Below the pieces are notes generated by a model, which ran no database searches, was not told the DNA's origin, and was given only the letters and a program-made list of their open reading frames with translations. This document shows, one piece after another, positions 5,142 through 38,900 of a DNA stretch of 64,000 nt. Source of the stretch: Candidatus Latescibacterota bacterium (GTDB lineage: Bacteria; Latescibacterota; UBA2968; UBA8231). Position 1 is the stretch's first letter, and every line of letters starts with the position of its first letter. Location: contig OZ220090.1 in NCBI GenBank assembly GCA_964291625.2, positions 1,062,451 to 1,126,450 on the forward strand. Direction: 5' to 3'. The position numbers and the translations under genes were made by a program.

Positions 5142-5813
5142 TCAGGGAACCCGATCCTTCGGAAACCAGGTGACCCTCGGCGGCCCGGTCGAGGTGCTGC
5201 GCCGTGCGTCCATCATCTCCCGGAGGGTCTCCCGGGCGCCGCCGACGATGGGGTCGCCGTGCCCGGGCAGGAGGCTCTCGAAGTCGAGGTCGAGCAGGTG
5301 GGCCAGGCTCTCCCAGGGCCGGGGATGGCCGTTGGGGTGGCCGCCGAGGGGGATGCCTCCCGGCGCCCACTTGGCGGTGGTGCCCAGGGCGTCGCCCACG
5401 AACAGGAGACCCCCGTGCCGCGGGGAGAGCAGGGCCTGCTCGCCGCGGGTGAGGCCGGGGACGCCGACGGCCCGCAGGCCGCAGGGCAGCTCGTCGCCGT
5501 CGCCGTAGGGCTCCCAGCGGTCCAGGTCCTCGACCATGCAGGCGTCCTCGGCGGGCAGGTAGATCGGGGCCCCGGTGCGGGCGGCGAAGAGCCGGGCCGA
5601 GCGCTCGTGCCAGCCCACGGTGAGCACGATGGCCCGCACGTCCCCGGCCTCGGCAATCGGTTGGAGGGCGCTCCACTCGACCGGATCGATGAGGACGCTG
5701 CCGGCCTCCGTGCGCAGCCACCAGGACTCGAGGGACCAGACCTCCGGCCAGACGACCCGCCACTGGAACAGGCCGGGCAGGACCTCCTCCATCGCCTCCC
5801 CCCCGGTCAGCAT
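5142..5813 (-). CDS. MBL-fold metallo-hydrolase-like protein
   Basis: VLIDP, degenerate T-x-x-x-H-x-R motif (LTVGWHERS), LFVGDAL, LLPGHG. Confidence 0.8.
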   Translation of the reverse strand: MLTGGEAMEEVLPGLFQWRVVWPEVWSLESWWLRTEAGSVLIDPVEWSALQPIAEAGDVRAIVLTVGWHERSARLFAARTGAPIYLPAEDACMVEDLDRWEPYGDGDELPCGLRAVGVPGLTRGEQALLSPRHGGLLFVGDALGTTAKWAPGGIPLGGHPNGHPRPWESLAHLLDLDFESLLPGHGDPIVGGARETLREMMDARRSTSTGPPRVTWFPKDRVP

Positions 5814-5819
5814 GAGCCC

Positions 5820-18172: not shown

Positions 18173-19258
18173 TCAATCGATGGGCTCGTACTTCGGCTGC
18201 CTCGGGGCGCGTTCGCGCTCGAGGCGGTAGGGACGGCCGGCCTGCAGGGGCAGTTCCACGCGGGCGCCGCCGCACACGTGGGACTCGATGAAGGCGAAGA
18301 TCAGCTCCGTGTTGGTGCGCGCCAGGCGCGCGCCTCCCCGGGGGGGCTCCCCGGTGTCGAGACTGTGCACGAGATCCTCGATCAGGCACACGGTCGAGCT
18401 CTTGCGCTGGTACTCCGGGAAGGGGCTGCGGCCCAGCACCGGGCGCCCCCGGTGGTCCTTCCCCTTGGGCTCCCGGATCTCCCACTCCTCGCCGTTCTGC
18501 ATCGCCGTGGCCACGCCGCCGCTGCAGATTGCCTCGATCTCGGAGCCGCGGCCGCTGTTCAGGGCGTAGGCGGTGACCCCGTCCTCGAACTGCAGGATCC
18601 CGTGGCCGACGGGGTCCTCGCTCAGCCGATCGCCGTCGATGACGCCGTCGCCCTCGGGCAGGTGGGCCTGCACCCAGGCCACGGGGCGGTCCGAGTGCAG
18701 GCGCAGGATCAGGTCGAAGCCGTGGCTGGCGCTGTTGAAGAGAGTGCCCGTCGAGTGCAGCACCAGCGACTTCAGCCGGCCGATGCGGCCCCCGTCGATG
18801 ACCTCCTTCATGCGGTCGTACCCCGGGTCCCAGCGCCGGTTGGTCCCCATGTTGAGGACCGCGCCGTGGGCCTCGCAGGCCTCGACCATGGCGTCCGCGT
18901 CGGCCAGGGAGGCGGAGAATGCCTTCTCGGCGTAGATGGCGCGGACCCCGTGGGCGGCGGCGAAGACGACGACCTCGCGGCGCTGCTCGGGCTGGGTGGC
19001 GACGCTGAGGATCTCGGGCTTCTCGGCCTCGATCATCCGCCGGTAGTCGGTGTACTGCCGGTCGGCGGGCACCCCGTAGCGGCGCCCCACCTGCTCCATC
19101 ACCTCCGGGCGCAGGTCCGAGCAGGCGACCATGTCGGTGCGCTCGCAGGCTTCGTACCCGGCGGCGTGCGAGTACGGCCGGCGGGCCGGCGGCACCTCGT
19201 TGTCGATGAAGGCCCCCATGCGGCTGCAGCCGACGAGGGCGGCGCGGTAGCGATGCAT
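18173..19258 (-). CDS. Gfo/Idh/MocA family oxidoreductase
   Basis: VGCSRMG, IYAEKA, SHGFD. Confidence 0.88.
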   Translation of the reverse strand: MHRYRAALVGCSRMGAFIDNEVPPARRPYSHAAGYEACERTDMVACSDLRPEVMEQVGRRYGVPADRQYTDYRRMIEAEKPEILSVATQPEQRREVVVFAAAHGVRAIYAEKAFSASLADADAMVEACEAHGAVLNMGTNRRWDPGYDRMKEVIDGGRIGRLKSLVLHSTGTLFNSASHGFDLILRLHSDRPVAWVQAHLPEGDGVIDGDRLSEDPVGHGILQFEDGVTAYALNSGRGSEIEAICSGGVATAMQNGEEWEIREPKGKDHRGRPVLGRSPFPEYQRKSSTVCLIEDLVHSLDTGEPPRGGARLARTNTELIFAFIESHVCGGARVELPLQAGRPYRLERERAPRQPKYEPID

Positions 19259-19262
19259 TTGC

Positions 19263-20777
19263 TCAGCTCCCGGGAGAGGTCGGTGCGCCGGAGTCGAAGA
19301 GGGACTCGTCGAACCGCCCCTCCTCGTCGAGGGGAAAGACGCGGCGCCCCAGGTTGCGGAAGGTCACCGCCTGGGGGGAGTGAACCGAGGACTCCCCCAC
19401 GAGGTGAACGGCCCCGGCCCACGACTCGAAGCCGGCGCGGAAGTGGGCGGCGGACTTGACCCCCACCCAGCGCATGCTCCGCGGGTCGAGGCCGAGGGTG
19501 CGGGCGAAGGCGGTGTCGAAGGGCTGCTCGCGCTCGGTCACCAGCAGCACGTGCACTCCGTCCTGCTCGATGTGGGCCGAGGGCCCCATGCTCGCCTCGA
19601 GGCCGGCGAAGATCGGCCCGTCGTAGTGGAAGGCGCCGTCGCTGACGGCGATCACGCGGGCCTTCATGGGCACCGGCTCGCCCTGCAGGGGATGGGACTT
19701 GCCGCCCACCCGCAGGTCGAGGGCGGCGCCGGCCCCGGCGCCATGGCAGGCGGCCACCGACTCCGGGTCGACGATGTAGAGGACGCAGGCCTGGCGCAGG
19801 CCGGCCTCGACAAAGGCCCGCAGCATGCCGGTGCTGTCCCCGGGGGACCCGCCGCCGGTGTTGTCGTCACGGTCGGCGATGACGGCCGGGAAGAGCCCGT
19901 CGGCCTCGACCTGCCGCAGGACCTCCTCCGTCGACCGGCGGGGCTCGTGCCAGTCGCGGCGGCGCTCCCAGATCCAGCCGCCCAGCTCGTCGGCGCAGGC
20001 CTGGGCCAGCTCCTCGTCGCCGTCGGCCACCACCGTCACCGAGGCGCCCATGCAGGGCACGTCGGCCAGGGGGAAGCAGGTGCAGACCGAGGCGCAGACC
20101 ACCCCCGGCCGGGCCTCGATCCCGTGGAGCCGCTCGATCGTCTCCCGCATCGGCGGGTGGGCGGTGACCTGGTGCATGCCCCACATCATCGGCACCGGGT
20201 GGAAGGCCATCACCGGCCGCAGGCCCTCGCGGACGATGCGCACCAGCACGTCGGCGCACTCGCGGCCCCGCTCGGCCATGTCCACCTCCGGGTAGCTCTC
20301 GCGCCCGATGAGCACGTCGGCGGCGGCGACCATCTCGGCCGACATGTTGGTGTGGATGTCGTGGGCGGCGCAGACCGGCACCGAGGGGCCCACGACCTCG
20401 CGGACCCGGCTGAGGATGTGGCCGTCGGCGTCGTCGAGGCCCTCGGCCGCCATCGACCCGTGCAGCTCGAGGAGGACGCCGTCGATCTCGCCGGCGGCCC
20501 GGAGGCCGTCGAGCAACTCGGTCAGGATCTCGTCGAAGAGAGCCCGGGGCGTGGGCGCGCTCGGATGGGGCTCGGCGTGGATCGTGGGCACCAGCTCGAA
20601 GCCGTGGTCCTCAGCGCCCTCGATGAAGCCGCCCATGGGGCTGTTGGTGCCGCGGAAGGTGCGGATCAGCTCCTCGCCGCGCAGGTAGCCGAAGCGGGCC
20701 TCGTAGCTGTGGCGGCCGGTGGGCACCGGCGTGAAGGTGCTCGACTCGTGGCTGATGGTGCCGGTGGCGACGCGCAT
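19263..20777 (-). CDS. M81 (MlrC-like) metallopeptidase
   Basis: HESSTF, LELHGSM, DIHTN, YPEVD, DNTGGGSPGD, VKSAAHFRAGF. Confidence 0.93.
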   Translation of the reverse strand: MRVATGTISHESSTFTPVPTGRHSYEARFGYLRGEELIRTFRGTNSPMGGFIEGAEDHGFELVPTIHAEPHPSAPTPRALFDEILTELLDGLRAAGEIDGVLLELHGSMAAEGLDDADGHILSRVREVVGPSVPVCAAHDIHTNMSAEMVAAADVLIGRESYPEVDMAERGRECADVLVRIVREGLRPVMAFHPVPMMWGMHQVTAHPPMRETIERLHGIEARPGVVCASVCTCFPLADVPCMGASVTVVADGDEELAQACADELGGWIWERRRDWHEPRRSTEEVLRQVEADGLFPAVIADRDDNTGGGSPGDSTGMLRAFVEAGLRQACVLYIVDPESVAACHGAGAGAALDLRVGGKSHPLQGEPVPMKARVIAVSDGAFHYDGPIFAGLEASMGPSAHIEQDGVHVLLVTEREQPFDTAFARTLGLDPRSMRWVGVKSAAHFRAGFESWAGAVHLVGESSVHSPQAVTFRNLGRRVFPLDEEGRFDESLFDSGAPTSPGS

Positions 20778-20892
20778 GGGGGCTCTTCCGGCCTTCGGGG
20801 AGCGGGTGCGGAGGCCGAAGTATAGGTCCTTGGCCGGAGGCCGGGCGAGGGTTGCTCCGGTGCCGCGGTCTTCGCGCCGCGGCACCAGTCCG

Positions 20893-21732
20893 TCAGCGTG
20901 AGAAGGGGTGCTTGATCCGCCCCCATCCCGCGGGGGACGCCTGGGTGTCCGTTGGCCTCAGGCCGACCAGCACCGCCTGCGCGAAACCGCTGGCGTCCTC
21001 CTGCAGACCCCTGGCTCCGCCAGGCGGAGCGGGATAGGTGATGACACTGTAGCAGTTCGAACGTCCAACGCCATTGTTGTCGGCGGCGAGCACGGCCAGG
21101 GTGATGGTATCACCGATCCTCAGGTCGGAGCGTACGCTCTCCCCGGGGCCCGCGTCGCTCACCACGTCGAAGACCGTGAGCGACAACTCGACGCGCGTCA
21201 CCTTCTCATCCGGGTCCAGGGCACCCACCCCGTGGATGAACTCCGCGGAGTTCCGCCACTCGCCTACGGCTCCGGTGTAGCGGATCGAGGGGCCGTCCTC
21301 GGCGAAGGGAAGCACCTCGACTCGCTGCGCCGTGGCCGCGTCCGAGGCGACTTCCTGGGGCGCCACCTCGACCATGAACTCGAACTGGCCGTCGCGCCAG
21401 ATGTCGAAGGGCCGATCGGAGATCTCATGATCGATTCGCTCGAAGGCGACGAGCACGCGATCCGGCGGCAGCACGGCAATCCAGATCTCGATCCAGAAAG
21501 TACCCGGGCAGTACCCATGGGCGGATTCGCTGGGGTCCGCCCACGTATCGATTTCCTTCAGCATCGGCGGACCGATGATCTGCCGCCAGTCCGTCAGGTC
21601 ACCGTCCACCTGTATGGCATGGGCGTCCGTCAGCACAGGGATCTCGAGCGGCAGCAGGACCGGAGGCTCCCCGGCCGAGCAGATCCCTGGCAGCGCAGCG
21701 AACAGCAGGACAAGGGCTGGCGCTCTCAGCAT
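20893..21732 (-). CDS. Secreted DOMON/CBM9-like array protein, copy F (last)
   Basis: Signal peptide, IQVDGDLTDW motif, C-terminal SPAGWGRIK. Confidence 0.85.
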   Translation of the reverse strand: MLRAPALVLLFAALPGICSAGEPPVLLPLEIPVLTDAHAIQVDGDLTDWRQIIGPPMLKEIDTWADPSESAHGYCPGTFWIEIWIAVLPPDRVLVAFERIDHEISDRPFDIWRDGQFEFMVEVAPQEVASDAATAQRVEVLPFAEDGPSIRYTGAVGEWRNSAEFIHGVGALDPDEKVTRVELSLTVFDVVSDAGPGESVRSDLRIGDTITLAVLAADNNGVGRSNCYSVITYPAPPGGARGLQEDASGFAQAVLVGLRPTDTQASPAGWGRIKHPFSR

Positions 21733-21778
21733 GGCATGCCTCGTTGCGGCCTGCTACGTGTCCAGCGACGCCCGACCG

Positions 21779-22615
21779 CTACCATCTCAAGAGCCGCTTG
21801 AGCGAGCCCCAGCCCGAGGGCAGCACCACCGTCGGAGGCGGTTCCAGGCCGACCAGCACCGCCTGTGCGAAACCGCTGGCGTCTTCCTGCAGCCCCCTGG
21901 CTCCGCCAGGAGGAGCGGAATAGTAGATGACCTGGTAGCAGTTTCCATCGTCATTTTCGTTGGCGGCGATCACGGCCAGGGTGATGGTGTCACCGATCTT
22001 CAAGTCGGAACGAACGCTCTCCCCGGGGCCCGCGTCGCTCACCACGTCAAAGACCGTGAGCGACAACTCGACGCGCGTCACCTTCTCATCCGGGTCCAGA
22101 GCAGCCACTCCGTGGATGAACTCCGCCGTGTTCCGCCATCGGCCCACAGCTCCGGCGTAGCGGATCGAGAGGCCGCCCTCGGCAAAGGGAAGCACCTCGA
22201 CCCGCTGCGCCGTGGCCGCGTCCGAGGCGACTTCCTGGGGCGCCACCTCGATCATGAACTCGAACTGGCCGTCGCGCCAGATGTCTCTGACACTATCTGA
22301 GATCGAATGGTCCCATCGGTCGAAGGCGACGAGCACGCGATCCGGCGGCACCACGGCAATCCAGATCTCGATCCTGAAAAGCTGCTGGTGGCAGAACGCA
22401 TAGTCGGATTCGGTGGGGTCCGCCCATACGTCACGTTCCGTGAGCATGGGCGCACCGATCACCTGCCGCCAGTCCCCCAGGTCACCGTCCACCTGAATGG
22501 CATCGGCGTCCGTCAGCACCGGGATCTCGAGCGGCAGCAGGACCGGAGGGTCCCCAGCCGAGCAGATCCCTGGAAGGGCGGCGAACAGCAGCACAAGGGC
22601 TATCGCTCTCAGCAT
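21779..22615 (-). CDS. Secreted DOMON/CBM9-like array protein, copy E
   Basis: ATG start MLRAIAL, VDGDLGDW, C-terminal PSGWGSLKRLLRW. Confidence 0.85.
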   Translation of the reverse strand: MLRAIALVLLFAALPGICSAGDPPVLLPLEIPVLTDADAIQVDGDLGDWRQVIGAPMLTERDVWADPTESDYAFCHQQLFRIEIWIAVVPPDRVLVAFDRWDHSISDSVRDIWRDGQFEFMIEVAPQEVASDAATAQRVEVLPFAEGGLSIRYAGAVGRWRNTAEFIHGVAALDPDEKVTRVELSLTVFDVVSDAGPGESVRSDLKIGDTITLAVIAANENDDGNCYQVIYYSAPPGGARGLQEDASGFAQAVLVGLEPPPTVVLPSGWGSLKRLLRW

Positions 22616-22661
22616 GGCACGCCTCGCTGCGGCCTGCTGCGTGGCCAACGACGCTTGGCCG

Positions 22662-23489
22662 CTACCATCTCAAGAGCCGCTTGAGCGAGCCCCAGCCCGA
22701 GGGCAGCACCACCGTCGGAGGCGGCTCCAGGCCGACGAGCACCGCCGGCGCGAAGCCGCTGGCGTCTTCCTGCAGCCCCCTGGCTCCGCCAGGAGGAGCG
22801 GAATAGTAGATGACCTGGTAGCAGTTTCCATCGTCATTTTCGTTGGCGGCGATCACGGCCAGGGTGATGGTGTCACCGATCTTCAAGTCGGAACGAACGC
22901 TCTCCCCGGGGCCCGCGTCGCTCACCACGTCAAAGACCGTGAGCGACAACTCGACGCGCGTCACCTTCTCATCCGGGTCCAGAGCAGCCACTCCGTGGAT
23001 GAACTCCGCCGTGTTCCGCCATCGGCCCACAGCTCCGGCGTAGCGGACCGAGAGGCCACCCTCGGCAAAGGGCAGCACCTCGACTCTCTGCGCCGTGGCG
23101 GCGTCCGAGGCGACCTCCTGGGGCGCCACCTCGATCATGAACTCGAACTGGCCGTCGCGCCAGATGTCTCTGACGTTACCTGAGATCGAACGATCCCATC
23201 GGTCGAAGGCGACGAGCACGCGATCCGGCGGCAGCACGGAAATCCAGATCTCGATCCAGAAAGTCGACGGACAGTACGCGGATTCGCTGGGGTCCCCCCA
23301 CATGTCGATCATCGCGAGCGTCGGAGGACCGATGACCTGCCGCCAGTCCGCCAAGTCACCATCCACCTGTATGGCATCCTCATTCGTCAGCACCGGGATC
23401 TCGAGCGGCGGCAGGACCGGAGGGTCCCCGGCCGAGCAGATCCCCGGCAGCGCGGCGAACAGCAGCACAAGGGATATCGCTCTCAGCAA
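22662..23489 (-). CDS. Secreted DOMON/CBM9-like array protein, copy D
   Basis: TTG start aligned with the other copies, VDGDLADW, PSGWGSLKRLLRW. Confidence 0.85.
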   Translation of the reverse strand: MLRAISLVLLFAALPGICSAGDPPVLPPLEIPVLTNEDAIQVDGDLADWRQVIGPPTLAMIDMWGDPSESAYCPSTFWIEIWISVLPPDRVLVAFDRWDRSISGNVRDIWRDGQFEFMIEVAPQEVASDAATAQRVEVLPFAEGGLSVRYAGAVGRWRNTAEFIHGVAALDPDEKVTRVELSLTVFDVVSDAGPGESVRSDLKIGDTITLAVIAANENDDGNCYQVIYYSAPPGGARGLQEDASGFAPAVLVGLEPPPTVVLPSGWGSLKRLLRW

Positions 23490-23535
23490 GGCGAGCCTCG
23501 CTGTGGCCTGCTCCGTGGCCAACGACGCCCGACCG

Positions 23536-24375
23536 CTACCATCTCAAGAGCCGCTTGAGCGAGCCCCATCCCGAAGGCGACACAACCGTACGACGCGGTT
23601 CCAAGCCGACCAGCACCGCCTGCGCGAAACCGCTGGCATCCTCCCGCAGAATCCTGGCAGGAGGGAATGGATAGGTGACGACCGCGACGCACCAGTCACA
23701 AGGATCGACATCGACGCCTATCACCCCCAAGGTGATGGCATCACCGACCTTCAGGTCCGACCGAACGCTCTCCTGGAGCCCCACGTCGCTGACCACGTCG
23801 AACACCGTGAGCGACACCTCCACGCGCGTCTCGATCTCGTGATTGGCCTTGGGTGGGTCCGAGTCGGTCACCCCGTGGAGGTACTCGCTCGTGTTCCGCC
23901 ACGCGCCCAAGGCTCCGGCGTAGCGGACCGAGAGGCCGCCTTCGGCAAAGGGCAGCACCTCGACTCTCTGCGCCGTGGCCGCATCCGAGGCCACCTCCTG
24001 AGGCGCCACCTCCACCATGAACTCGAACTGGCCCTCGCGCCATCCATCGACTACCTGGTCGCTGACCTCCGTGTCTCGTCTCTCGAAGGCGAGGAGCACA
24101 CGGTCCGGCGGCAGCACGGCAATCCAGACATCAAGGTGATAATCCAACAAATCTCTCATGGGGTCGCCCTCGGTGACGTCCCCCCACATGTCGATCGGCG
24201 CGAGCGTCGGCGGACCGATGACCTGCCGCCAGTCCGCCAGGTCACCGTCCACCTGTATGGCATGGGCGTCCGTCAGCACAGGGATCTCGAGCGGCGGCAG
24301 GACCGGAGGCTCCCCGGCCGAGCAGACCCCTGGAAGGGCGGCCAACAGGACCACGGCCGTCATGCTTCTCAGCAT
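23536..24375 (-). CDS. Secreted DOMON/CBM9-like array protein, copy C (most divergent)
   Basis: Signal peptide, VDGDLADW, loop insertion DSDPPKANHEIE, PSGWGSLKRLLRW. Confidence 0.85.
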   Translation of the reverse strand: MLRSMTAVVLLAALPGVCSAGEPPVLPPLEIPVLTDAHAIQVDGDLADWRQVIGPPTLAPIDMWGDVTEGDPMRDLLDYHLDVWIAVLPPDRVLLAFERRDTEVSDQVVDGWREGQFEFMVEVAPQEVASDAATAQRVEVLPFAEGGLSVRYAGALGAWRNTSEYLHGVTDSDPPKANHEIETRVEVSLTVFDVVSDVGLQESVRSDLKVGDAITLGVIGVDVDPCDWCVAVVTYPFPPARILREDASGFAQAVLVGLEPRRTVVSPSGWGSLKRLLRW

Positions 24376-24428
24376 GGGACCCCTGTCAGATGGGCGATCA
24401 GCAAAGCAGGTGGAACGCCAGCCGGCCG

Positions 24429-25262
24429 CTACCATCGCCAGAGACGCTTGAGCGAGCCCCATCCCGAGGGCCGGACCACCGTAGGAGGCGGCTCCAGACC
24501 CACCAGCACCGCAGGCGCGAAGCCGCTGGCGTCCTCCTGCAGACGCCTGGCTCCGGCAGGGGGATAGTCGATGACACTGTAGCAGCTCGAACGTCCATCG
24601 CCATTGTTGTCAGCGGCGATCACGGCCAGGGTGATGGCATCACCGATCCTCAGGTCGGAGCGCACGCTCTCCCCGGGGCCCGCATCGCTCACCACGTCGA
24701 AGACCGTGAGCGACAACTCGACGCGCGTCACCTTCTCATCCAAGTCCAGAGTACCCACCCCATGGATGAACTCCGCCGTGTTCCGCCATTGGCCCACAGC
24801 ACCGGTGTAGCGGATCGAGAGGCCGCCCTCGGCGAAGGGAAGCACCTCGACCCGTTGCGCCGTGGCCGCGTCCGAGGCGACTTCCTGGGGCGCCACCTCG
24901 ATCATGAACTCGAACTGGCCGTCCCGCCAGATGTCGAAGGGCCGATCGGAGATCTCATGATCGATTCGCTCGAAGGCGACGAGCACGCGATCCGGCGGCA
25001 CCACGGCAATCCATATCTCGATCCAGAAAGTACCCGGGCAGAACGCATAATCGGACTCTGTGGGGTCCGTCCATACGTCACGTACCGTGAGCAAGGGCGC
25101 ACCGGTGACCTGCCGCCAGTCCGTCAGGTCACCGTCCACCTGCATGGCAGCGGCGTCCGCCAGCACCGGGATCTCGAGCGGCGGCAGGACCGGAGGGTCC
25201 CCGGCCGAGCAGATCCCCGGCAGCGCGGCGAACAGCAGGACAAGGGATATCGCTCTCAGCAA
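24429..25262 (-). CDS. Secreted DOMON/CBM9-like array protein, copy B
   Basis: Signal peptide, VDGDLTDW, PSGWGSLKRLWRW. Confidence 0.85.
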   Translation of the reverse strand: MLRAISLVLLFAALPGICSAGDPPVLPPLEIPVLADAAAMQVDGDLTDWRQVTGAPLLTVRDVWTDPTESDYAFCPGTFWIEIWIAVVPPDRVLVAFERIDHEISDRPFDIWRDGQFEFMIEVAPQEVASDAATAQRVEVLPFAEGGLSIRYTGAVGQWRNTAEFIHGVGTLDLDEKVTRVELSLTVFDVVSDAGPGESVRSDLRIGDAITLAVIAADNNGDGRSSCYSVIDYPPAGARRLQEDASGFAPAVLVGLEPPPTVVRPSGWGSLKRLWRW

Positions 25263-25308
25263 GGCGAGCCTCGCTGTGGCCTGCTCCGTGGCGAGCGACG
25301 CCCGGGCA

Positions 25309-26145
25309 CTACCATCTCAAGAGCCGCTTGAGCGAGCCCCAGCGCGAGGGCAGCACCACCGTCGGAGGCGGTTCCAGACCCACCAGCACCGCCGGCGCGA
25401 AACCGCTGGCGTCTTCCTGCAGACGCCTGGCCCCAGCGGAACCGTAGCCGGTGACCCTGTAGCAGTGTGAATCGCTTCCATCGCCATTGTTGTCGGCGGC
25501 GAGCACGGCCACGGTGATGGTATCACCGATCCTCAGGTCGGAGCGCACGCTCTCCCCGGGGCCTGCATCGCTCACCACGTCGAAGATCGTGATCGACAAC
25601 TCGACGCGGGTCACCTTCTCATCCAGGTCCAGGGCACCCACCCCGTGGATGAACTCCGCCGTGTTCCGCCATAGGCCCACAGCACCGGTGTAGCGGATCG
25701 AGAGGCCGTCCTCGGCGAAGGGAAGCACCTCGACTCGCTGCGCCGTGGCCGCGTCCGGGGCGACATCCTGTGACGTTACCTCGATCATGAACTGGAACTG
25801 GCCGTCTCGCCAGATATCGAAGATACCCTCGGAGATCACCTCATCGAGTCGCTCGCAGGCGACGAGCACGCGATCCGGCGGCAGCACGGCAATCCAGATC
25901 TCGATCCAGAAAGTACCCGGGCAGTACCCATGGGCGGATTCGCTGGGGTCAGCCCACATTTCATATGTCGCCAGCAGAGGCGGACCGATGACTTGCCGCC
26001 AGTCCGCCAGGTCACCATCCACCTGTATGGCATCGGCGTCCGTCAGCACCGGGATCTCGAGCGGCGGCAGGACGGGGGCCTCCCCACCGAAGCACATGCG
26101 CGGCAACACGACAAGCAGAAAGACCAACGCCGTGGTTCTCCCCAT
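25309..26145 (-). CDS. Secreted DOMON/CBM9-like array protein, copy A (first)
   Basis: GAGGAG RBS, distinct signal peptide, VDGDLADW, PSRWGSLKRLLRW. Confidence 0.85.
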   Translation of the reverse strand: MGRTTALVFLLVVLPRMCFGGEAPVLPPLEIPVLTDADAIQVDGDLADWRQVIGPPLLATYEMWADPSESAHGYCPGTFWIEIWIAVLPPDRVLVACERLDEVISEGIFDIWRDGQFQFMIEVTSQDVAPDAATAQRVEVLPFAEDGLSIRYTGAVGLWRNTAEFIHGVGALDLDEKVTRVELSITIFDVVSDAGPGESVRSDLRIGDTITVAVLAADNNGDGSDSHCYRVTGYGSAGARRLQEDASGFAPAVLVGLEPPPTVVLPSRWGSLKRLLRW

Positions 26146-26282
26146 GGCCGTCTCTCCTCACCCGTCCGTGCACGAGTCCAAATCCATTCATCCATCATAC
26201 CCATCTGGCCGGGATATCGCTATGCCAACCCGCCCTGGGACGCAGGTTGGCCCACTCCGGGCCAGCGGCTACCATTGGCGCC

Positions 26283-27062
26283 ATGATCTTCAACGCCATC
26301 GACGACTTCCGCCGCCGGCTGCAATCCGGCGAGACCCTGGTGGGCACCACCCTGACCCTCACCGATCCCCAGGTCTGCGAGGCCCTCGCCGATTCGGTCG
26401 ACTTCCTGTGGATCGACCTGGAGCACTCCCCCATGGGCCCGGAGGCGATGCGCGCCCACCTGATGGTGGCCCGGGGCCGGCGCCGGGCGGTCCTCGTGCG
26501 CGTGCCGGGGTCGGAGACGTCCGCCATCAAGCCCGTCCTCGACGCCGGGGCCCCCGGCATCGTCGTCCCCCAGGTCGCCTCCGCCGCCGAGGTCGAGTCG
26601 GTCGTCGCCGACTGCCGCTACCCGCCCGGCGGGCGCCGGGGCTTCGGCCCCCTCGTGGCCTCCGACTACGGCCGCCTGGGAGGTCCGGAGTACCCGGAGC
26701 TGGCGGACCGCAGCCTCTTCGTCTCGGTCATGGTCGAGCGCGTCGAGGCGGTGGAGGCGATCGACGAGATCGTCGCCGTGCCCGGCCTCGACTCGGTGGT
26801 CCTCGGCCCCAATGACCTCTCCGGCTCCCTCGGCCTCCTCGGGCAGGTGGAGCACCCCGACGTGGTGGCCGCCATGGAGCGGGTCATCGCCGCGGCCTCC
26901 GCCCGGGGCCTGCCGGTGGGCTCGGGCCTGCCCGTCGACCCGGCCTACGCCGAGGTCCAGGCGCGGCGCGGCGTGCAGTGGCTGCAGATCGGCGGCGACC
27001 TCCCCCACCTGATGCTCGCCGTGGACGACACGGTGAAGACGGTCCGCCAGCGGCTGGCGTGA
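26283..27062 (+). CDS. HpcH/HpaI aldolase family protein
   Basis: DFLWIDLEHSP, VLDAGAPGIVVP, YPPGGRRG, LGPNDLS. Confidence 0.93.
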   Translation: MIFNAIDDFRRRLQSGETLVGTTLTLTDPQVCEALADSVDFLWIDLEHSPMGPEAMRAHLMVARGRRRAVLVRVPGSETSAIKPVLDAGAPGIVVPQVASAAEVESVVADCRYPPGGRRGFGPLVASDYGRLGGPEYPELADRSLFVSVMVERVEAVEAIDEIVAVPGLDSVVLGPNDLSGSLGLLGQVEHPDVVAAMERVIAAASARGLPVGSGLPVDPAYAEVQARRGVQWLQIGGDLPHLMLAVDDTVKTVRQRLA

Positions 27063-28120
27063 ACCTCCTCCCCGCGCAGGACCTGCGCGACCTCGGCGTC
27101 GAGTTGTTCCGGGCCTGCGGCGCCCCGGCAGCCGAGGCCGCCCTCGTGGCCGATCATCTCGTGGAAGCCAGCCTCATGGGCATCGACTCCCACGGCGTCG
27201 TGCGCTACGTGATGTACGTGGAGCACTGCCTCGACGGCACGATCCGTCCCGGCGCGCCGGCGCGGGTGGTGGACTCCCCGGGAGCGGCGGCCGTCGTCGA
27301 CTGCGGCATGAACTTCGGCCAGGTCGGCGCCCAGCACATGACCGACCTGGTGAGCGAGGGCGCCCGGTCCGGCGGCATCGCCTTCGCCGTGAGCCGCCGC
27401 TGCCATCACGTGGGCCGCCTCGGCGCCTGGCCCCAGAAGCTGGCCGAGGCCGGCCTCTTCGGACTGGCCGTGGCCAACAGTCACCGGCACGGCCACTTCG
27501 TCGTGCCCTGGGGCGGACGGGAGGGCCGGCTGGCCACCAACCCCCTGGCCTGGGCGGCGCCCACCGAGGGCGATCCCCTGCTGCTGGACATGTCGACGAG
27601 CATGATCCCCGAGGGCCGCATCCGCACCGCCCTGCACGCCGGAGAGCGGCTGCCCGAGGGCCGCATCCTCGACGGAGACGGACGGCCCACGGTCGAGCCC
27701 GCCGACTTCTACGGCCCGGGCGAGGGGCCGCCGGCCGGCGCCATCCTGCCCTTCGGCGGCGACCTCGGGTACCGCGGCTTCGGCCTCGGCCTGCTGGTGG
27801 AGGTCCTCGGCGCGACGATCGCCGGCGAGCCCCTGGCCGAACCCGACGACGGCCGCTACATCAACGGCTTCGGCATCCTCGCCATCGACCCGGCGGCGCT
27901 GAGCGGCTCCGGGGACCGCTTCCGGGAGCTGACCGGCGAGCTGCGGGACTACGTGCGCGGCTCGGCCCCGGCTCCCGGCTTCGAGGAGGTGCTGATGCCG
28001 GGGGAGCGCGAGTTCCGCACCCTGCGCGAGCGCCGGCGCGAGGGCATCCCCCTGCCCGGGGAGAGCCGCCGCCTCATCGCGGAGGCGGCGGAGCGGGTCG
28101 GGGTCCGGGTTCCGTGGTAG
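27059..28120 (+). CDS. Ldh_2 family (malate/L-lactate/ureidoglycolate dehydrogenase-like) oxidoreductase
   Basis: GIDSHG, HVGRLG, ATNPLA, LDMSTS, LPFGG, MPGERE; GTGA overlap. Confidence 0.93.
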   Translation: MNLLPAQDLRDLGVELFRACGAPAAEAALVADHLVEASLMGIDSHGVVRYVMYVEHCLDGTIRPGAPARVVDSPGAAAVVDCGMNFGQVGAQHMTDLVSEGARSGGIAFAVSRRCHHVGRLGAWPQKLAEAGLFGLAVANSHRHGHFVVPWGGREGRLATNPLAWAAPTEGDPLLLDMSTSMIPEGRIRTALHAGERLPEGRILDGDGRPTVEPADFYGPGEGPPAGAILPFGGDLGYRGFGLGLLVEVLGATIAGEPLAEPDDGRYINGFGILAIDPAALSGSGDRFRELTGELRDYVRGSAPAPGFEEVLMPGEREFRTLRERRREGIPLPGESRRLIAEAAERVGVRVPW

Positions 28121-34837: not shown

Positions 34838-35911
34838 ATGCCACGGCCCGCGACCCAGATTTCGTTGACGGAAGAGGATCGCGCCACGCTGTCGCAATGG
34901 GTGCGATCGGGGACCACGGAACAGCGGCTCGCCTTGCGGGCGCGCATCATTCTGGCCGCGGCGGCCGGCGAGGCGTCGGCGGCCATCGCCGACCGGCTGG
35001 AGCTGCGCCACGGCACGGTGAGCAAGTGGCGGACGCGCTTTGCCGCGCACGGCCTGGAGGGGTTGCAGGACGCGCCGAGGCCGGGGCCGCCGAGGCGGTA
35101 TGACGAGGAAACCGAGCAGCGCATCCTCGACGTGGTGTCCCAACCGCCGCCGGAGGGGCACGCGACTTGGACCGGGACGCTGGTGGCCGAGGCCTTGGGC
35201 GACGTGTCGGACGATCACGTGTGGCGGGTGCTGCGTCAGCATGGCATCCATCTACAGCGGCGACGGTCCCATGAGGTGAGCACGGACCCGGAGTTTTCGG
35301 CCAAGGCTGCCGATGTCGTGGGGTTGTACCTCGACCCGCCGGAGAACGCCGTGGTGCTGTGCGTCGACGAAAAGCCTTCCATCCAGGCCTTGGAACGAGC
35401 CCAGGGGTATCTGCGGTTGCCCAATGGCCAGGCCATGAGCGGCGCCAGCCATCGCTATCAACGCCACGGCACCACGACCTTGTTCGCCGCCCTCGAGGTC
35501 GCCACGGGGCGCATCCAGGCTGGCCACGCGAAGCGACGACGGCGCCGGGAGTTCCTCGACTTCATGAACGACCTGGTCCGAGAGTATTCGCCCCACCAGG
35601 CCATTCACGTGATCCTGGACAACCTGAACACCCACAAGCCCAAACGCGACCGATGGCGGGCCCGTCATCCCAACGTGCACTTCCACTACACGCCCACCAA
35701 CGCCTGCTGGCTGAATCAGATCGAGACCTGGTTCAGCATCCTCACCCGCCGCGCCTTGCAGGGGGCCAGCTTCACCTCGCCCCGGCAACTTCGCCAAGCC
35801 ATCGACGCCTTCATCGCCGCCTACAACTCGACGGCTCAGCCCTTCGAGTGGAAGAAGCGGAACGTCGTCCCTACGGAGCTTCATGATACATACGCTGAAC
35901 TGTGCAGGTAG
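34838..35911 (+). CDS. IS630 family transposase
   Basis: HTH N-terminus, DDE motifs VDEK...ILDNL...WLNQIE. Confidence 0.97.
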   Translation: MPRPATQISLTEEDRATLSQWVRSGTTEQRLALRARIILAAAAGEASAAIADRLELRHGTVSKWRTRFAAHGLEGLQDAPRPGPPRRYDEETEQRILDVVSQPPPEGHATWTGTLVAEALGDVSDDHVWRVLRQHGIHLQRRRSHEVSTDPEFSAKAADVVGLYLDPPENAVVLCVDEKPSIQALERAQGYLRLPNGQAMSGASHRYQRHGTTTLFAALEVATGRIQAGHAKRRRRREFLDFMNDLVREYSPHQAIHVILDNLNTHKPKRDRWRARHPNVHFHYTPTNACWLNQIETWFSILTRRALQGASFTSPRQLRQAIDAFIAAYNSTAQPFEWKKRNVVPTELHDTYAELCR

Positions 35912-35940
35912 GCACTAGCTGAAGACCTCTCAGGAAGGAC

Positions 35941-38900
35941 CTACCTCACCAGCGCCACCTTCCCGACCCTGACCTGGCCCCCCGCCATCAGCCTCCACAG
36001 ATAGACCCCTCCAGCGACCGCACGGCCGTCACTGGTGCCGTCCCACTCCTTGGCATAGACACCACGGGGGGCGTCCGGATCGGCCGCCAGGGTGGCCACA
36101 GACTGGCCTGAGAGGTTGTAGACGACCAGGCTCACCGGGCCGTCCTCGGGCAGTTGGTAGTAGAACATGGTCGTCGGGTTGAACGGATTGGGGGCCGCAT
36201 AGATGGCGAGCTCGTCAGGGCCTCCCATGGAGACGAGGACCTTCCCGGCTTCGTTGGTGACGCTGTCTCCTACGTGTGCAGGGACCGTGTACTCTGCGTA
36301 CGGCCCCCACCCGATGCTGTTCTTGGCTTTGACCCGGAAGGTGTAGGTGACTCCGGCCAGGATCCCTGTGGCGGTGAAATTCCTGTCTCCGTTCGTGTGG
36401 GTGTCGTTGTTCCAGATCTGGCCGACCTTCCGATTCCAGATGTAGTCTGTGATCGAGGCCCCGTTGTCGTCAGGCTCGTCCCACTCGATGCGCACGGACC
36501 CGGTGATCGGCCGGCGGTAACTGAATCCACTGGGCGCGTCGGGATTGCCCGCTGGGGTGGCGGAGTCCGTCGAGGGCGGTCCAAACCCTGCGGGGTTGTG
36601 TGCCCGGACCTGGAAGTAGTAGAGGGTGCCGTTGGTGAGCCCTTCGATGGTCTTGGTTCGCGAGGTGACTCTGCTATAGGCGGTGTACGACCCGCCATCG
36701 ACCTTGAACCGATAGTTGTAGCGGTCGATGTTGGCTCCCTGGTCGTCCGCCGCATCCCACGTCAGGGTGACCTTTGCGTCTCCGCGAGAGGCGTTCAGAT
36801 TTGGCGGAGGCAGGGGTTTCTTGGCGCTGACCACGCTCGTAGTGGTGGCCGAGGCATACTTCCCGTCTCCATGGCCGTCCGAGTATTCCCTGGAGGCTCT
36901 CAGGAACTTGCCGACGAGATACTTGGAAGAGATGGTGAGGGTCCGGCCGTCACTGGAGAGTGCGAAGTCATGGTCATCCAAGGCTGTGCCTTGTGACGAA
37001 CTGGAACTGGTGGTGGACCACTCCCAGTTCGCCTCGAATCCAAGGTCTCCGTCCGGGTCCGAGAGCAACGCGGTGACGGAGTCTCCCCATTTCGGGGCGT
37101 TGTTGGACAAGGTGACGGTGCCGTCCTCGTCTACGTTTTCAATGGTGATGGCGGTCGTGTGGCTGTCGGATGCGCCGCTGGCATCCGTTGCGGTGACTTG
37201 GAGGGAGTAGGACTTCTTGGCTTCGTAGTTGGGGCTGATCGCGAACGTCACCCTGCGAGTGTTGTCGGTGGCTCCCGCCGAGTGGCTGAAGATGGCCCCG
37301 TCGCTCACAGACCAGGTGATGGTGTCATCGGGGAGATCGTCATCCGAGACGGTATAGACTCCAACGAACTGCTTGGAGGTATTCTCCGGGACAGATACCT
37401 GAGTCCGACCTGACACCTCGGGCTCATCGTTGGCAGGAATAGTTGCCGTGCTTGTGACAGAGGACCCGCTGCCGATGGCGTTGACGGCCCTGACCTCGAA
37501 CTTGTATTCCGTGCCGGCCAAGAGGCCGGAGGCCGTCGCGGTGCGAGCGGTCTTGAACGTCCATGGAGACCAAGTTCCACCGGACAAATTCACCCTGTAT
37601 CGGTATTGATACCTGGCCACCGCCGACCCGCAGTCACTGGACGGGGCGTCCCAAGTCCATGTCATGCTCTTTGTCCCGACGCTCCCGGAGAGGTTCCTCG
37701 GAGGCATCGGGACGCTGGCCAAGACAGTGCCCGTCGAAACCGTAAGGGTGTTGTCGGCGGCGGCGTTGTCTTCATACTCGGCGATGACGGAGATCTTCTG
37801 TCCTACACGCGAGGAAGGGATCGAGCGAGTAACGGTCGCCGAGGTCTCCGACAATTCGACCCCGTCCCACGTCCAGCCGTGATCGTCATCCGACATGTCG
37901 ATCCCCCCGTCAGGATCCGTGAGGGTGGCTTGGAGGCTGGAGCAAACGCGAGGGGCACTGCTGTTGAAGGTGATGGACCCTGTCTCGATCTCGTTGGTGA
38001 CCCTGACCGTCCGATTGGCCGTGCCGGTCACTTCGCCGTCGCTGACTTGGATCTTGACGGAGTAGATGTGCTTCGACTCGTAGTTGGGAGCCGACTTGAA
38101 CTCCAGAGTCCTCCGGTCGCTGTGACCCGCCACGGCCTCCAGATCGAAGGAACTGCCATCCGTCCCGCCCGGAGACCACGTCAGGTCCCCGCAGTAGGAG
38201 TTGGCCCCCACCTCGTAGGTCCCCGCCGACTGCGTGGTGTTCTCAGGGACGTCCTGCTTGGTGTCCGGAACCTCGTCCACGGTGATGACGCAATCGGTGG
38301 CGATGACGGGCGAGTTCGTCGTCTTCCGGACCGTGTGATTGCCATACTCGTCGTTGTAGTTGACCGTCACTTTGAGATGGGATCCCACGTCCCCTGAGGT
38401 GGGGGTGTAGGTGTCGGTGGCGCTCAAAGAGGGGGTGGTGGTCCTGGCGGAGTTCTCATCACTACTGGAGGCCCCGACACGATCCCACCTCCATGTGTGC
38501 TGACGGTGGTTGTCCTCATCGATCAAGGTGGCCGTCACCGTCTGGCCTTTGACCGGCGGATCCGGAGAGATGCCCAGCACCCCTGGCCCGTTGGGTTTAC
38601 GCACCACGATGCCTGTAGTCCCGGTGGCGGTCTGTTCCCCGTCGTCATCGTCGTACGTGGCCGTCACCTTCAGCTTCTTGTCCACGTCCGCCGCGACAGG
38701 GGTGTACGTGGCATTGCCGTCGGTCCCATCCGCGGACGTCAGGGTAGTCTCGGTGGACCCGTCCACCCGCACCCAATCCCCCCAAGTGACGTCGGACACG
38801 CCGTCGTCGTCGGCCACGGAGGCCGTCACGGCCTTCGTCTCCTGAGGCACGTCAGCCGGGTCGGTCTGCTCGAAGGTGAAACTGACCTCGCCGGGGCTGT

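What the first reader, a model, noticed from the sequence alone, without database searches (positions are those of the whole stretch)
20893..26145. Six-gene array of secreted beta-sandwich proteins with shuffled variable segments (antibody-like repertoire)
Seen: six tandem genes (A to F in transcription order) share a conserved framework interrupted by three variable segments: VR1 after DWRQ, VR2 after PPDRVLxA, VR3 before ARxLxED. Alleles reassort between non-adjacent copies. In VR1, ADPSESAHGYC is in A+F, DPTESDYAFC in B+E, and PPTLAxIDMWGD in C+D. In VR2, ERIDHEISDRPF is in B+F and DRWDxSISxxVR in D+E. In VR3, ANENDDGNCYQVIYY is in D+E and NNGxGRSxCYSVIxY in B+F. Knowledge: (I/V)DGxLxDW marks DOMON/CBM9-like ligand-binding sandwiches. 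Inference: a recombination-diversified repertoire of binding proteins with CDR-like loops; no recombinase or reverse transcriptase is encoded in this window.
Basis: partly seen in the sequence, partly recalled or inferred. Interest (0 to 1): 0.88.

Follow-up and report, generated by a model that had tools for sequence, protein, structure and literature searches.

The report
Recombining array of secreted CBM9-like proteins
A sponge-associated bacterium carries six side-by-side genes for exported sugar-binding-type proteins whose variable loops have been swapped between copies by ordinary homologous recombination, a real but already familiar way for bacteria to diversify surface proteins.

Summary
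The mosaicism is significant: PHI z = -10.5 (0 of 10,000 permutations), conflicting segment trees with 93-100% bootstrap, and a 292-nt identical D/E tract.

A good AlphaFold model (pLDDT 83.8) superposes on the CBM9 module 1I82 (Z 18.0, 184 of 189 residues), although no Pfam model matches.

The array sits between the same flanking genes in four congeners, with 2 to 7 copies. Loop alleles are few, old and shared across species. dN/dS is 0.65-1.13 in the loops against 0.22-0.24 in the framework, never clearly above 1.

I found no silent cassettes, no nearby reverse transcriptase and no convincing invertible repeats. It is best read as a germline tandem-paralog cluster evolving by unequal crossover and gene conversion, like the Staphylococcus aureus lpl cluster, not an antibody-like system.

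Extra: all six proteins end in a short WGx(I/L/V/M)K tail. The same tail closes 59 exported-looking ORFs of several unrelated families in this genome.

The parts
25309..26145 (-). Gene A, first gene of the array (278 aa); type I body with the 'first-gene' signal peptide also seen in the first gene of the arrays of four congeners
24429..25262 (-). Gene B (277 aa, TTG start), type I. It is the only copy with a near-orthologue at flank-level identity in a congener (95.7% aa to G002 gene 4)
23536..24375 (-). Gene C (279 aa from the homologous ATG; the ORF is open to 24462). Type II subfamily: a 4-residue-longer beta7-beta8 loop, no Cys in VR1 and CxxC in VR3. Its N-terminal loop and C-terminal part carry type I-like sequence
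22662..23489 (-). Gene D (275 aa from the homologous TTG), type I
21779..22615 (-). Gene E (278 aa from the homologous ATG), type I
20893..21732 (-). Gene F, last gene (279 aa), type I, with the 'last-gene' C-terminal tail variant that is conserved in the last gene of all five arrays
25023..25106 (-). VR1 of gene B (residues 53-80): the long loop before strand beta2. It holds the single VR1 cysteine of type I proteins
24930..24974 (-). VR2 of gene B (residues 97-111): end of beta3 and the beta3-beta4 loop. It lies inside the B/F shared tract (24930-24990 in B, 21400-21460 in F)
24549..24623 (-). VR3 of gene B (residues 214-238): the beta9-beta10 hairpin and what follows. It holds the second cysteine
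24432..24473 (-). C-terminal tail of gene B (residues 264-277) with the WGx(I/L/V/M)K motif 2-8 residues before the stop. The same tag ends 59 ORFs of this genome
22764..23039 (-). Recent conversion or duplication tract in D. Its partner in E is 21881-22156. It spans 134 consecutive matching polymorphic sites and includes a 292-nt identical run
25863..25947 (-). A/F shared tract over VR1 (partner in F at 21450-21534): 45 consecutive matching polymorphic sites and a 94-nt identical run
25242..25292 (-). B/D shared tract over the spacer and signal-peptide codons (partner in D at 23469-23519). It is part of a junction unit (3' end of the upstream gene, spacer, 5' end of the next gene) that is nearly the same for A>B and C>D
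19263..20777 (-). Downstream flank: an M81/MlrC-like metallopeptidase gene, same strand, syntenic in all five genomes
26247..27062 (+). Upstream flank: an HpcH/HpaI aldolase gene, divergent strand, syntenic in all five genomes

Best explanation
The locus is a lineage-restricted tandem cluster of paralogous genes. Among the 40 relatives searched it was found in 4 of 9 other species of one genus. The record titles of related MAGs name that group Gemmatimonadaceae or Candidatus Latescibacterota, and pieces occur in runs labelled sponge metagenome. Each gene encodes a Sec-exported, stand-alone protein of about 255 mature residues with the CBM9 beta-sandwich fold and a short C-terminal WGx(I/L/V/M)K tail. 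Shown: the cluster changes copy number (2 to 7) between genomes whose flanks are 90-97% identical. Shown: segments have been copied between paralogs, so a small pool of old loop alleles appears in different combinations in different copies and species, while the framework stays homogenised. Inferred mechanism: RecA-type homologous recombination using the near-identical framework blocks. Every gene pair shares an identical run of at least 29 nt, and the block between VR1 and VR2 has dS of only 0.01-0.03. Unequal crossover would change copy number and make hybrid genes, and patchy gene conversion would move loop segments. Inferred function: the three variable blocks and the type II loop insertion sit at one end of the sandwich and form the ligand-contacting surface. 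On this reading the cell exports several related binding modules with different specificities at once, most likely for glycans or other host or particle surface ligands. This is a germline repertoire built over evolutionary time, not a programmed diversification system.
For: Gene anatomy and alignments. Recombination tests: PHI z = -10.5, with 0 of 10,000 permutations as low. Segment trees conflict with high support: VR1 gives (B,E) 96 and (C,D) 98, VR2 gives (B,F) 93 and (D,E) 95, VR3 gives (D,E) 100. In the run test 12 of 15 pairs reach p <= 0.0014, and D/E share 134 consecutive sites. Identical runs are 292 nt for D/E, 94 nt for A/F, 78 nt for B/D and 76 nt for B/F. Fold: the model has pLDDT 83.8 and pTM 0.80. 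VIA-align gives 1I82_A Z 18.0, rmsd 2.8 A, 184 of 189 residues, and 4JPQ_B Z 16.2. Foldseek gives 7NWO E 7e-7 and 1I82 TMt 0.76. The nearest ESM Atlas clusters carry CBM9_1. Distribution: 5 of 41 genomes including the window's own have the family, all in one genus, with 0 of 31 outside it. Synteny holds, with flanks 90-97% identical in nucleotides. Copy numbers are 6, 7 (one broken), 3, 2 and at least 4. Array proteins match their best congener copy at only 82-88% aa for five of the six genes, against 94-97% for the flank proteins in G002. Allele pool: 80 distinct proteins give 4 major VR2 classes, 4 major VR3 classes and 8 multi-member VR1 classes, and combinations such as VR1 class 1 or 3 with VR2 class 2 or 3 all occur. 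Selection: dN/dS is 0.65, 1.13 and 1.05 in VR1, VR2 and VR3, against 0.24 in the core and 0.22 in the C-terminal framework. Placement of the variable blocks: all follow strands that end at the same pole when strands are counted alternately. In addition, 71 of 80 proteins have exactly two mature cysteines, either one in VR1 plus one in VR3 (44) or two in VR3 (27). No other donor sequence exists in the genome: 1 of 37 blastn HSPs lies outside the array, and it is a 23-nt match. Independent assemblies repeat the same mosaics, for example B-like, E-like and F-like combinations.
Against: No dN/dS value is clearly above 1, so adaptive diversification is not shown, and relaxed constraint in loops would give similar numbers. 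Ligand binding is inferred from fold alone. None of the six proteins reaches any Pfam model, and the CBM9 aromatic clamp could not be located. The one-pole placement of the variable blocks rests on strand parity and cysteine covariation, not on coordinates. Signal peptides, co-transcription and ribosome sites are read by eye. The promoter scan found nothing. Transcription rests only on contigs from two RNA libraries, which may contain DNA. The runs laid were contigs, so within-population heterogeneity could not be examined, and a faster ongoing process is not excluded.
Confidence: 0.7

Rival explanations
1. Neutral concerted evolution. The three blocks are simply unconstrained surface loops that have diverged too far to be homogenised by gene conversion. 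On this reading the mosaic has no adaptive meaning, and the copies are redundant dosage duplicates.
For: dN/dS in the blocks is near 1 and never clearly above it (0.65-1.13; 0.41-0.97 between allele classes). Third-position diversity rises together with amino-acid diversity in the same blocks. One copy in G002 is broken.
Against: Discrete allele classes persist across species, with within-class dN/dS of 0.43-0.72. The two-cysteine pattern is kept in 71 of 80 proteins. All six copies here and 18 of 19 complete copies examined in five genomes are intact. The variable blocks coincide with one pole of a binding-module fold.
Confidence: 0.15
2. Programmed or high-frequency variation. The array recombines often enough within a population to give cells with different repertoires, as in cassette-based antigenic variation. 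This is the spirit of the first reader's 'antibody-like' reading.
For: Segmental, non-reciprocal-looking tracts include a very recent one: D/E share 292 identical nt next to regions with 16-22 differences per 60 nt. Array content turns over fast relative to flanks.
Against: There is no expression-site and silent-cassette layout: all copies are full length with start codon and signal peptide. No partial copies exist elsewhere. The only RVT_1 match in the genome lies about 1 Mb away on the contig. The best inverted repeat in 19000-28000 is 42 nt at 76% complementarity. The allele pool is small and old. In the probable source run X1, only two kinds of base difference and no joints were reported (contigs only, so weak evidence).
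Confidence: 0.08
3. Assembly artefact: the mosaics are chimeras made when near-identical repeats were mis-joined.
For: The genes share identical runs of 29 to 292 nt. Short-read contigs break inside the array, and no listed piece spans the stretch.
Against: The same block combinations recur in independent assemblies: B-like (1,2,1) in many proteins, F-like (6,2,1) in P0012, and an E-like combination, (5,4,3) against E's (11,4,3), in P0021, P0027, P0035 and P0036. Four other genomes, one of them a single contig, show syntenic mosaic arrays. Contigs of run X1 match 28 of 30 bins, 67 of 71 pieces at 99% or more. One 318-nt piece covers VR1 and VR2 of gene C without a difference.
Confidence: 0.02
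4. The proteins are heme-binding DOMON-type redox modules, like the gamma subunits of ethylbenzene dehydrogenase or nitrite oxidoreductase, rather than ligand-binding modules.
For: 2IVF_C (Z 11.8), 7B04_C (Z 10.6) and cellobiose dehydrogenase cytochrome domains (Z 7.1-7.6) appear among the fold matches.
Against: The CBM9 and BACUNI_03838 matches are much stronger, at Z 18.0 and 16.2. Among columns conserved at 90% or more in the 44-sequence family alignment there is no Met, His or Tyr, and the only Lys is in the C-terminal tail. No redox partner gene flanks the array.
Confidence: 0.03

Closest known systems
Staphylococcus aureus lpl (lipoprotein-like) tandem paralog cluster on the nuSa-alpha island (Tsuru & Kobayashi 2008, PMC2568036; abstract and outline read)
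   Same: Both are same-strand tandem paralogs for exported proteins thought to act in host interaction. Both have highly conserved nucleotide blocks inside each ORF that serve as recombination sites, incongruent phylogenies of the variable regions of one ORF, and rearrangements and copy differences between close genomes. Both also show a conserved unit running from the 3' end of one gene through the spacer into the 5' end of the next. Here that holds for A>B versus C>D.
   Different: The protein family and fold are different: CBM9-like here, not DUF576-type lipoproteins (that family name is recalled, not tested). There are three variable blocks rather than two. The phylum and habitat differ. 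There is no canonical lipobox by eye. The C-terminal WGx(I/L/V/M)K tail is an extra feature.
Family 9 carbohydrate-binding modules, e.g. TmCBM9-2 of Thermotoga maritima xylanase 10A (PDB 1I82) and CkCBM9.3 (PDB 7NWO; PMC8280721, passages read)
   Same: Same fold: Z 18.0, rmsd 2.8 A, 184 of 189 residues, and TMt 0.74-0.76. Acidic residues are conserved across the wider family, which would fit the structural calcium sites of CBM9. That link is inference.
   Different: Identity is only 11-12% and no PF06452 match was found. These are stand-alone exported proteins, not modules of glycoside hydrolases. About 45 extra residues are present, much of them probably the long VR1 loop (inference). Equivalents of the Trp71/Trp175 aromatic clamp were not identified. 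Sugar binding is untested.
Cassette-based antigenic variation by segmental gene conversion (Neisseria pilE/pilS, Borrelia vlsE/vls, Anaplasma msp2). Recalled knowledge; no paper read here.
   Same: Segments of variable regions are copied between related sequences that share conserved framework blocks.
   Different: Those systems have one expressed gene plus truncated, promoterless donors, and they vary at high frequency within a clone. Here all six copies are complete genes, no extra donors exist, and frequency is unknown.
Diversity-generating retroelements. Recalled knowledge.
   Same: Both concentrate variation in the ligand-binding loops of an exported binding protein.
   Different: There is no adjacent reverse transcriptase; the only RVT_1 hit is at C2:85064, about 1 Mb away. 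There is no template repeat. The variants are discrete shared alleles rather than scattered substitutions.

Membership tests
CBM9 (Pfam PF06452 CBM9_1; CAZy family 9) | Sequence match to the family profile above its gathering score | tested here: not met
   0 of 6 array proteins match PF06452 at E <= 1. A distant relative, P0096, reaches 19.6 bits against a cut-off of 23.4. The PDB profile search gave 0 hits at E <= 1.
CBM9 (Pfam PF06452 CBM9_1; CAZy family 9) | 11-13-stranded beta-sandwich superposable on TmCBM9-2 | tested here: met
   1I82_A at Z 18.0, rmsd 2.8 A, 184 of 189 residues. Foldseek E 7e-7 to 3e-6 for 7NWO, 7NWN and 1I82. The model has pLDDT 83.8.
CBM9 (Pfam PF06452 CBM9_1; CAZy family 9) | Aromatic clamp (Trp71/Trp175 in TmCBM9-2; PMC8280721) and sugar binding | not testable with these tools
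   No residue-level structural alignment or coordinates were returned. Rough interpolation places the clamp near the Trp after VR2 and the Phe after VR3, but that is a guess.
Heme-binding DOMON-type modules (EbdC, NxrC, CDH cytochrome domain) | Conserved axial heme ligands (Met, His, Lys or Tyr; recalled) | tested here: not met
   Columns conserved at 90% or more in the 44-sequence alignment hold no Met, His or Tyr, and the only Lys is in the tail. Fold scores are lower, at Z 7-12.
Tandem paralog cluster diversifying by homologous recombination at conserved blocks (lpl type) | Same-strand tandem paralogs with conserved internal nucleotide blocks flanked by variable regions | tested here: met
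   The block between VR1 and VR2 has dS 0.012-0.03. Every pair shares an identical run of at least 29 nt.
Tandem paralog cluster diversifying by homologous recombination at conserved blocks (lpl type) | Incongruent phylogenies of variable regions within one ORF | tested here: met
   Bootstrap 93-100 for conflicting groupings. PHI had 0 of 10,000 permutations as low.
Tandem paralog cluster diversifying by homologous recombination at conserved blocks (lpl type) | Copy-number and order differences between close genomes at a syntenic locus | tested here: met
   2, 3, at least 4, 6 and 7 copies between the same flanks, which are 90-97% identical.
Cassette-based antigenic variation | One expression site plus truncated silent donor cassettes | tested here: not met
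   All six copies are full length with start codon, GAGG-like site and signal peptide. No fragments lie elsewhere in the genome.
Cassette-based antigenic variation | High-frequency variation within a clonal population | not testable with these tools
   Only assembled contigs of the runs could be laid.
Diversity-generating retroelement | Reverse transcriptase and template repeat next to the variable gene | tested here: not met
   The genome has one RVT_1 match, at C2:85064-85699, while the array is at C2:1083343-1088595. No template-like copy was found.
Invertible or shufflon-type site-specific systems | Inverted repeats and a site-specific recombinase at the locus | tested here: not met
   The best inverted repeat in 19000-28000 is 42 nt at 76% complementarity. 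The neighbours are an aldolase, a dehydrogenase and a peptidase. The only transposases in the window are IS630-like, 9 kb or more away.

The most novel reading that the evidence does not exclude
The WGx(I/L/V/M)K tail may be a new, helix-free C-terminal sorting or anchoring tag that displays a large set of binding modules (CBM9-like, LRR, Cache, PD40 and unknown families; 59 ORFs) on the surface of sponge-associated Gemmatimonadota-like bacteria. The six-gene array would then be its most actively recombining member, giving each strain, and possibly each cell lineage, a different combination of host- or prey-recognition specificities. The evidence does not exclude that recombination is frequent enough to produce heterogeneity within one sponge.
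Probability: 0.12. Interest if true: 0.75.

Novelty: new member of a known kind. Interest (0 to 1): 0.45.

Why it matters
Sponge symbionts are uncultivated, and how they are recognised, tolerated or attached in the host is largely unknown. This locus gives a well-defined, testable set of exported binding modules. Their specificity-determining loops can be read from natural chimeras: each paralog is in effect a loop-swap experiment already done by recombination. It also extends the lpl-type mode of evolution, recombination at conserved blocks that shuffles variable regions in tandem paralogs, to a distant phylum and a different fold. The shared C-terminal tail on 59 proteins of unrelated families may point to an undescribed export or anchoring route. 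If so, it would help predict the surface proteome of Gemmatimonadota, Latescibacterota and Poribacteria-like symbionts.

Tried and rejected
Structure from the six paralogs alone gave pLDDT 34.1 and was discarded. The 44-sequence alignment was needed.

Pfam, NCBIfam (7 proteins; only one irrelevant 16-bit hit) and the PDB sequence-profile search (0 hits) gave no family name.

The sigma-70 and terminator scan found 0 promoter-like sites. It found 2 terminator-like sites against 1.9 expected in shuffles, both inside genes, so it says nothing about operon structure.

The inverted-repeat search gave 39 weak pairs typical of GC-rich DNA, none convincing.

DGR, silent cassettes and invertible elements were considered and rejected.

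A lipoprotein reading was considered because a Cys is invariant in the signal peptide. The residues before it do not fit the lipobox consensus as I recall it, and distant relatives lack the Cys.

Heme-binding DOMON was rejected.

Read laying: all four runs were contigs, so heterogeneity, strand, transcript ends and expression level could not be judged. Two X1 bins (22711-22911 and 24721-24921) had no cover, which proves nothing. Table 5 of that call listed no joints. The two rows of table 5c (26490 to 24158 in X2 and X6) and the loose ends were not interpreted.

Runs with small word shares were not used for habitat.

I could not map the variable blocks in three dimensions because model coordinates are not returned. 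Strand parity and cysteine covariation were used instead.

Site-wise selection tests were not run, because recombination invalidates them without segment partitioning.

A literature search for the tail motif strings found 1 irrelevant paper. Searches found no description of this family or array.

Full report
WHAT IS THERE.

One search finds six minus-strand ORFs exactly where the finding places them. After harmonising start codons with the alignment the genes are:
- A 25309-26145
- B 24429-25262
- C 23536-24375
- D 22662-23489
- E 21779-22615
- F 20893-21732

They are separated by 46, 53, 46, 46 and 46 nt. Each spacer ends in a GAGG- or AGGGG-like site a few bases before an ATG or TTG (read by eye).

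Each protein starts with a short basic stretch, a hydrophobic run and a small-residue site, which I read as a Sec signal peptide (inference; no predictor was available). The array is slightly less GC-rich than its flanks (0.66 against 0.73).

The window is the last 64 kb of contig 2 of a 5.9-Mb, two-contig genome. The family occurs in that genome only as these six genes plus two very distant relatives on contig 1. A blastn of the repeat units against the whole genome gave 37 HSPs. Only one lay outside the array, a 23-nt chance match.

Nucleotide identity between genes is 71-92%, but it is very uneven along the gene:
- B and D are almost identical over the spacer and signal-peptide codons.
- A and F are almost identical over VR1.
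- B and F are almost identical over VR2.
- D and E have no difference at all over about 300 columns that include VR3.
- The same pairs differ by 13 to 25 positions per 60 nt elsewhere.

Three tests confirm that this is recombination.
- PHI (my script): 0.339 observed against 0.458 +/- 0.011 in permutations. None of 10,000 permutations was as low (116 informative sites).
- Maximum-likelihood trees of separate segments conflict with high bootstrap support. VR1 gives (B,E) 96 and (C,D) 98. VR2 gives (B,F) 93 and (D,E) 95. VR3 gives (D,E) 100.
- A GENECONV-like test permuted the order of the 403 polymorphic sites. It gave p <= 0.0014 for 12 of 15 pairs. The longest runs were D/E (134 sites), A/F (45), B/D (39) and B/F (34).

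Exact identical runs are 292, 94, 78 and 76 nt for those pairs. No pair shares less than 29 nt.

WHAT THE PROTEINS ARE.

No Pfam or NCBIfam model and no PDB sequence matches them. The close family is small: 82 proteins at 47% identity or more among 5.8 billion clusters, none named. The exhaustive representative search found only 32 relatives at E <= 0.001. Two of these are large multidomain proteins with T9SS-type C-terminal domains. One distant relative brushes the CBM9_1 model below threshold.

With a 44-sequence alignment AlphaFold gave a confident model (pLDDT 83.8, pTM 0.80). It superposes on the family 9 carbohydrate-binding module of Thermotoga maritima xylanase 10A (1I82_A: Z 18.0, rmsd 2.8 A, 184 of 189 residues). 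It also superposes on a Bacteroides putative carbohydrate-binding protein (4JPQ_B, Z 16.2). Heme-binding DOMON-type subunits score lower, at Z 7-12, and Foldseek agrees. The nearest ESM Atlas clusters are CBM9_1-bearing hypothetical proteins, commonest in Latescibacterota, Gemmatimonadota and Poribacteria (a lead only).

The family alignment keeps several acidic residues and tryptophans but no Met, His or Tyr. That argues against a heme module.

WHERE THE VARIATION LIES.

Across 19 complete genes from five genomes, amino-acid diversity peaks in three blocks (B numbering): residues 53-80, 96-111 and 212-240. It also rises in the signal peptide and the last 20 residues.

In the model these three blocks are the long loop before beta2, the beta3-beta4 loop and the beta9-beta10 hairpin. 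Counting strands alternately, all three fall at the same pole of the sandwich. So does the beta7-beta8 loop that is four residues longer in type II proteins. The loops of the opposite pole are nearly invariant. This is inference from topology.

An independent hint comes from the cysteines. Of 80 distinct family proteins, 71 have exactly two cysteines in the mature part. In 44 there is one in VR1 and one in VR3. In 27 both are in VR3. This fits a VR1-VR3 disulfide in type I and an intra-loop one in type II.

CBM9 modules bind sugar ends with an aromatic clamp (Trp71 and Trp175 in TmCBM9-2; PMC8280721, passages read). I could not locate its equivalents.

HOW THE ARRAY EVOLVES.

The family was found in 4 of 9 other species of the same genus and in 0 of 31 genomes outside it among those searched. 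In all of them it lies between the same HpcH-type aldolase and M81/MlrC-type peptidase genes, which are 90-97% identical in nucleotides to the window's. The copy number differs between genomes:

| Genome | Copies |
|---|---|
| G006 | 2 |
| G007 | 3 |
| G004 | at least 4 (array split over two contig ends) |
| G000 (this window) | 6 |
| G002 | 7, one frame-disrupted |

G002 also has an extra matrixin-like protease gene with a T9SS-type tail upstream of the array.

Two subfamilies exist everywhere: type I (A, B, D, E, F) and type II (C). The first gene always has its own signal-peptide type and the last gene its own tail variant, whatever body lies between. That is the pattern expected when recombination is confined to the repeated part.

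Only B has a partner at flank-like identity in the closest genome (95.7%). The other five reach 82-88%, against 94-97% for the flank proteins.

Clustering the blocks of 80 proteins at 80% identity gives few classes:
- VR2: 6 classes, 4 of them major
- VR3: 11 classes, 4 of them major
- VR1: 20 classes, 8 with more than one member

Combinations such as VR1 class 1 or 3 with VR2 class 2 or 3 all occur.

Between classes dS is 0.47-1.02, far above the 0.18-0.28 of the core, so the alleles are old. dN/dS is 0.65-1.13 in the blocks against 0.22-0.24 in the framework for the five type I genes of the window. It is 0.78-0.95 against 0.25-0.28 for 13 type I genes. It is raised, but not above 1.

The 16 codons between VR1 and VR2 have dS of only 0.012-0.03, so they are a likely recombination anchor.

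The junction unit made of the 3' end of A, the spacer and the 5' end of B is nearly the same as that of C and D. This echoes the gene-spanning unit of evolution described for the S. aureus lpl cluster (PMC2568036, abstract read).

WHAT IT IS NOT.

- There is one RVT_1 match in the genome, about 1 Mb from the array.
- There is no template-like or truncated copy anywhere.
- There is no convincing inverted repeat.
- The flanking genes are metabolic.
- The window's two IS630-like transposases flank a different, low-GC island.
- Assembly chimerism is unlikely. The same block combinations recur in independent assemblies. Contigs of the best-holding run match 28 of 30 bins, 67 of 71 pieces at 99% or more.

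EXPRESSION AND HABITAT.

Pieces 95-100% identical to genes A, B, C and F occur in contigs of two libraries recorded as sponge metatranscriptomes (X6, X22). One X22 contig covers the B-C spacer. The tool warns that DNA can be present in such libraries and that contigs do not show single transcripts, so this is only a weak hint of transcription. Record titles of related MAGs name Gemmatimonadaceae and Candidatus Latescibacterota.

A SIDE DISCOVERY THAT BEARS ON FUNCTION.

The six proteins end in a WGx(I/L/V/M)K motif 2-8 residues before the stop.
- In the six-frame translation of the genome, 59 ORFs of 120 aa or more end this way.
- Of 75 occurrences of the motif in long ORFs, 59 lie 2-8 residues from the stop. 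For the reversed motif the figure is 1 of 15.
- By blastp the 59 fall into clusters of 23 (the six plus 17 other CBM9-like proteins), 11, 5, 4, 4 and 3, plus 9 singletons. 46 of the 59 have an N-terminal hydrophobic run.
- I scanned ten representatives. Two are LRR proteins, two are Cache-domain proteins, one is a PD40 propeller, and five have no Pfam match.
- Distant relatives from other organisms carry the same kind of tail.
- The genome also has 19 matches to the T9SS C-terminal domain (11 over cut-off), so this tail is a separate class.
- I found no paper with the motif strings.

I read the tail as a probable sorting or anchoring tag. That would place the array products among a larger set of exported binding modules. 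This is inference.

VERDICT.

The mechanism is ordinary homologous recombination in a tandem paralog cluster, for which a close precedent exists. The 'antibody-like' framing is not supported.

What is new is the protein family, the host lineage and the shared C-terminal tail. I rate it as a new member of a known kind, of moderate interest.

Noticed in passing
genome-wide (G000); in the window: 24432-24473 and the equivalent ends of genes A, C, D, E and F: A short C-terminal tail, WGx(I/L/V/M)K followed by 2-8 residues and the stop, ends 59 ORFs of 120 aa or more from at least six unrelated sequence clusters (CBM9-like, LRR, Cache, PD40 and unknown families). 59 of 75 motif occurrences are at the C-terminus, against 1 of 15 for the reversed motif. 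It has no hydrophobic helix, and no NCBIfam model or paper was found for it. It may be a sorting or anchoring tag.
   Followed up: partly
window 34838-46037: A low-GC island (0.57-0.65 against about 0.72) is bounded by two IS630-like DDE_3 transposase genes with identical Pfam scores, in opposite orientation (34838-35911 plus strand, 44964-46037 minus strand). It encloses a 2675-aa ORF (35941-43968, minus strand) with fibronectin type III and cadherin domains. It looks like a composite-transposon-like element carrying a eukaryote-like giant adhesin.
   Followed up: partly
L034 11094-12239 (G002), between the array and the aldolase gene: The closest congener has an extra gene here for a matrixin-like zinc protease with a FlgD_ig/T9SS-type C-terminal domain. 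It is absent at this position in the window, where only about 100 nt separate gene A from the aldolase gene.
   Followed up: partly
G000 C1:3471489-3490325 and C1:3546368-3547338: A second recently expanded subfamily of tail-bearing CBM9-like proteins: seven paralogs whose best mutual matches are 67-83% identical, lying in two or three loci. This suggests that expansion of this fold in arrays is a general habit of the genome.
   Followed up: no
L034 about 5788-6617 (G002 gene 6) and L034 3275-4890: One type II copy in G002 is frame-disrupted. The MlrC-like flank gene in that MAG also appears as two tblastn pieces that meet at one base. These may be real pseudogenes or assembly errors.
   Followed up: no
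G000 C2:85064-85699: This is the only reverse-transcriptase (RVT_1) match of the genome, inside a 626-aa open frame. Its type (group II intron, retron or DGR) was not examined.
   Followed up: no
window 20500-26500 in runs X2 and X6: Table 5c of the read-laying output lists contigs in a DNA-type run and an RNA-library run of related strains that join 26490 to 24158 with 13 other letters between. Table 5 itself lists no joints. It may reflect a relative whose array starts with a type II gene, as in G006 and G007, but I did not interpret it.
   Followed up: no
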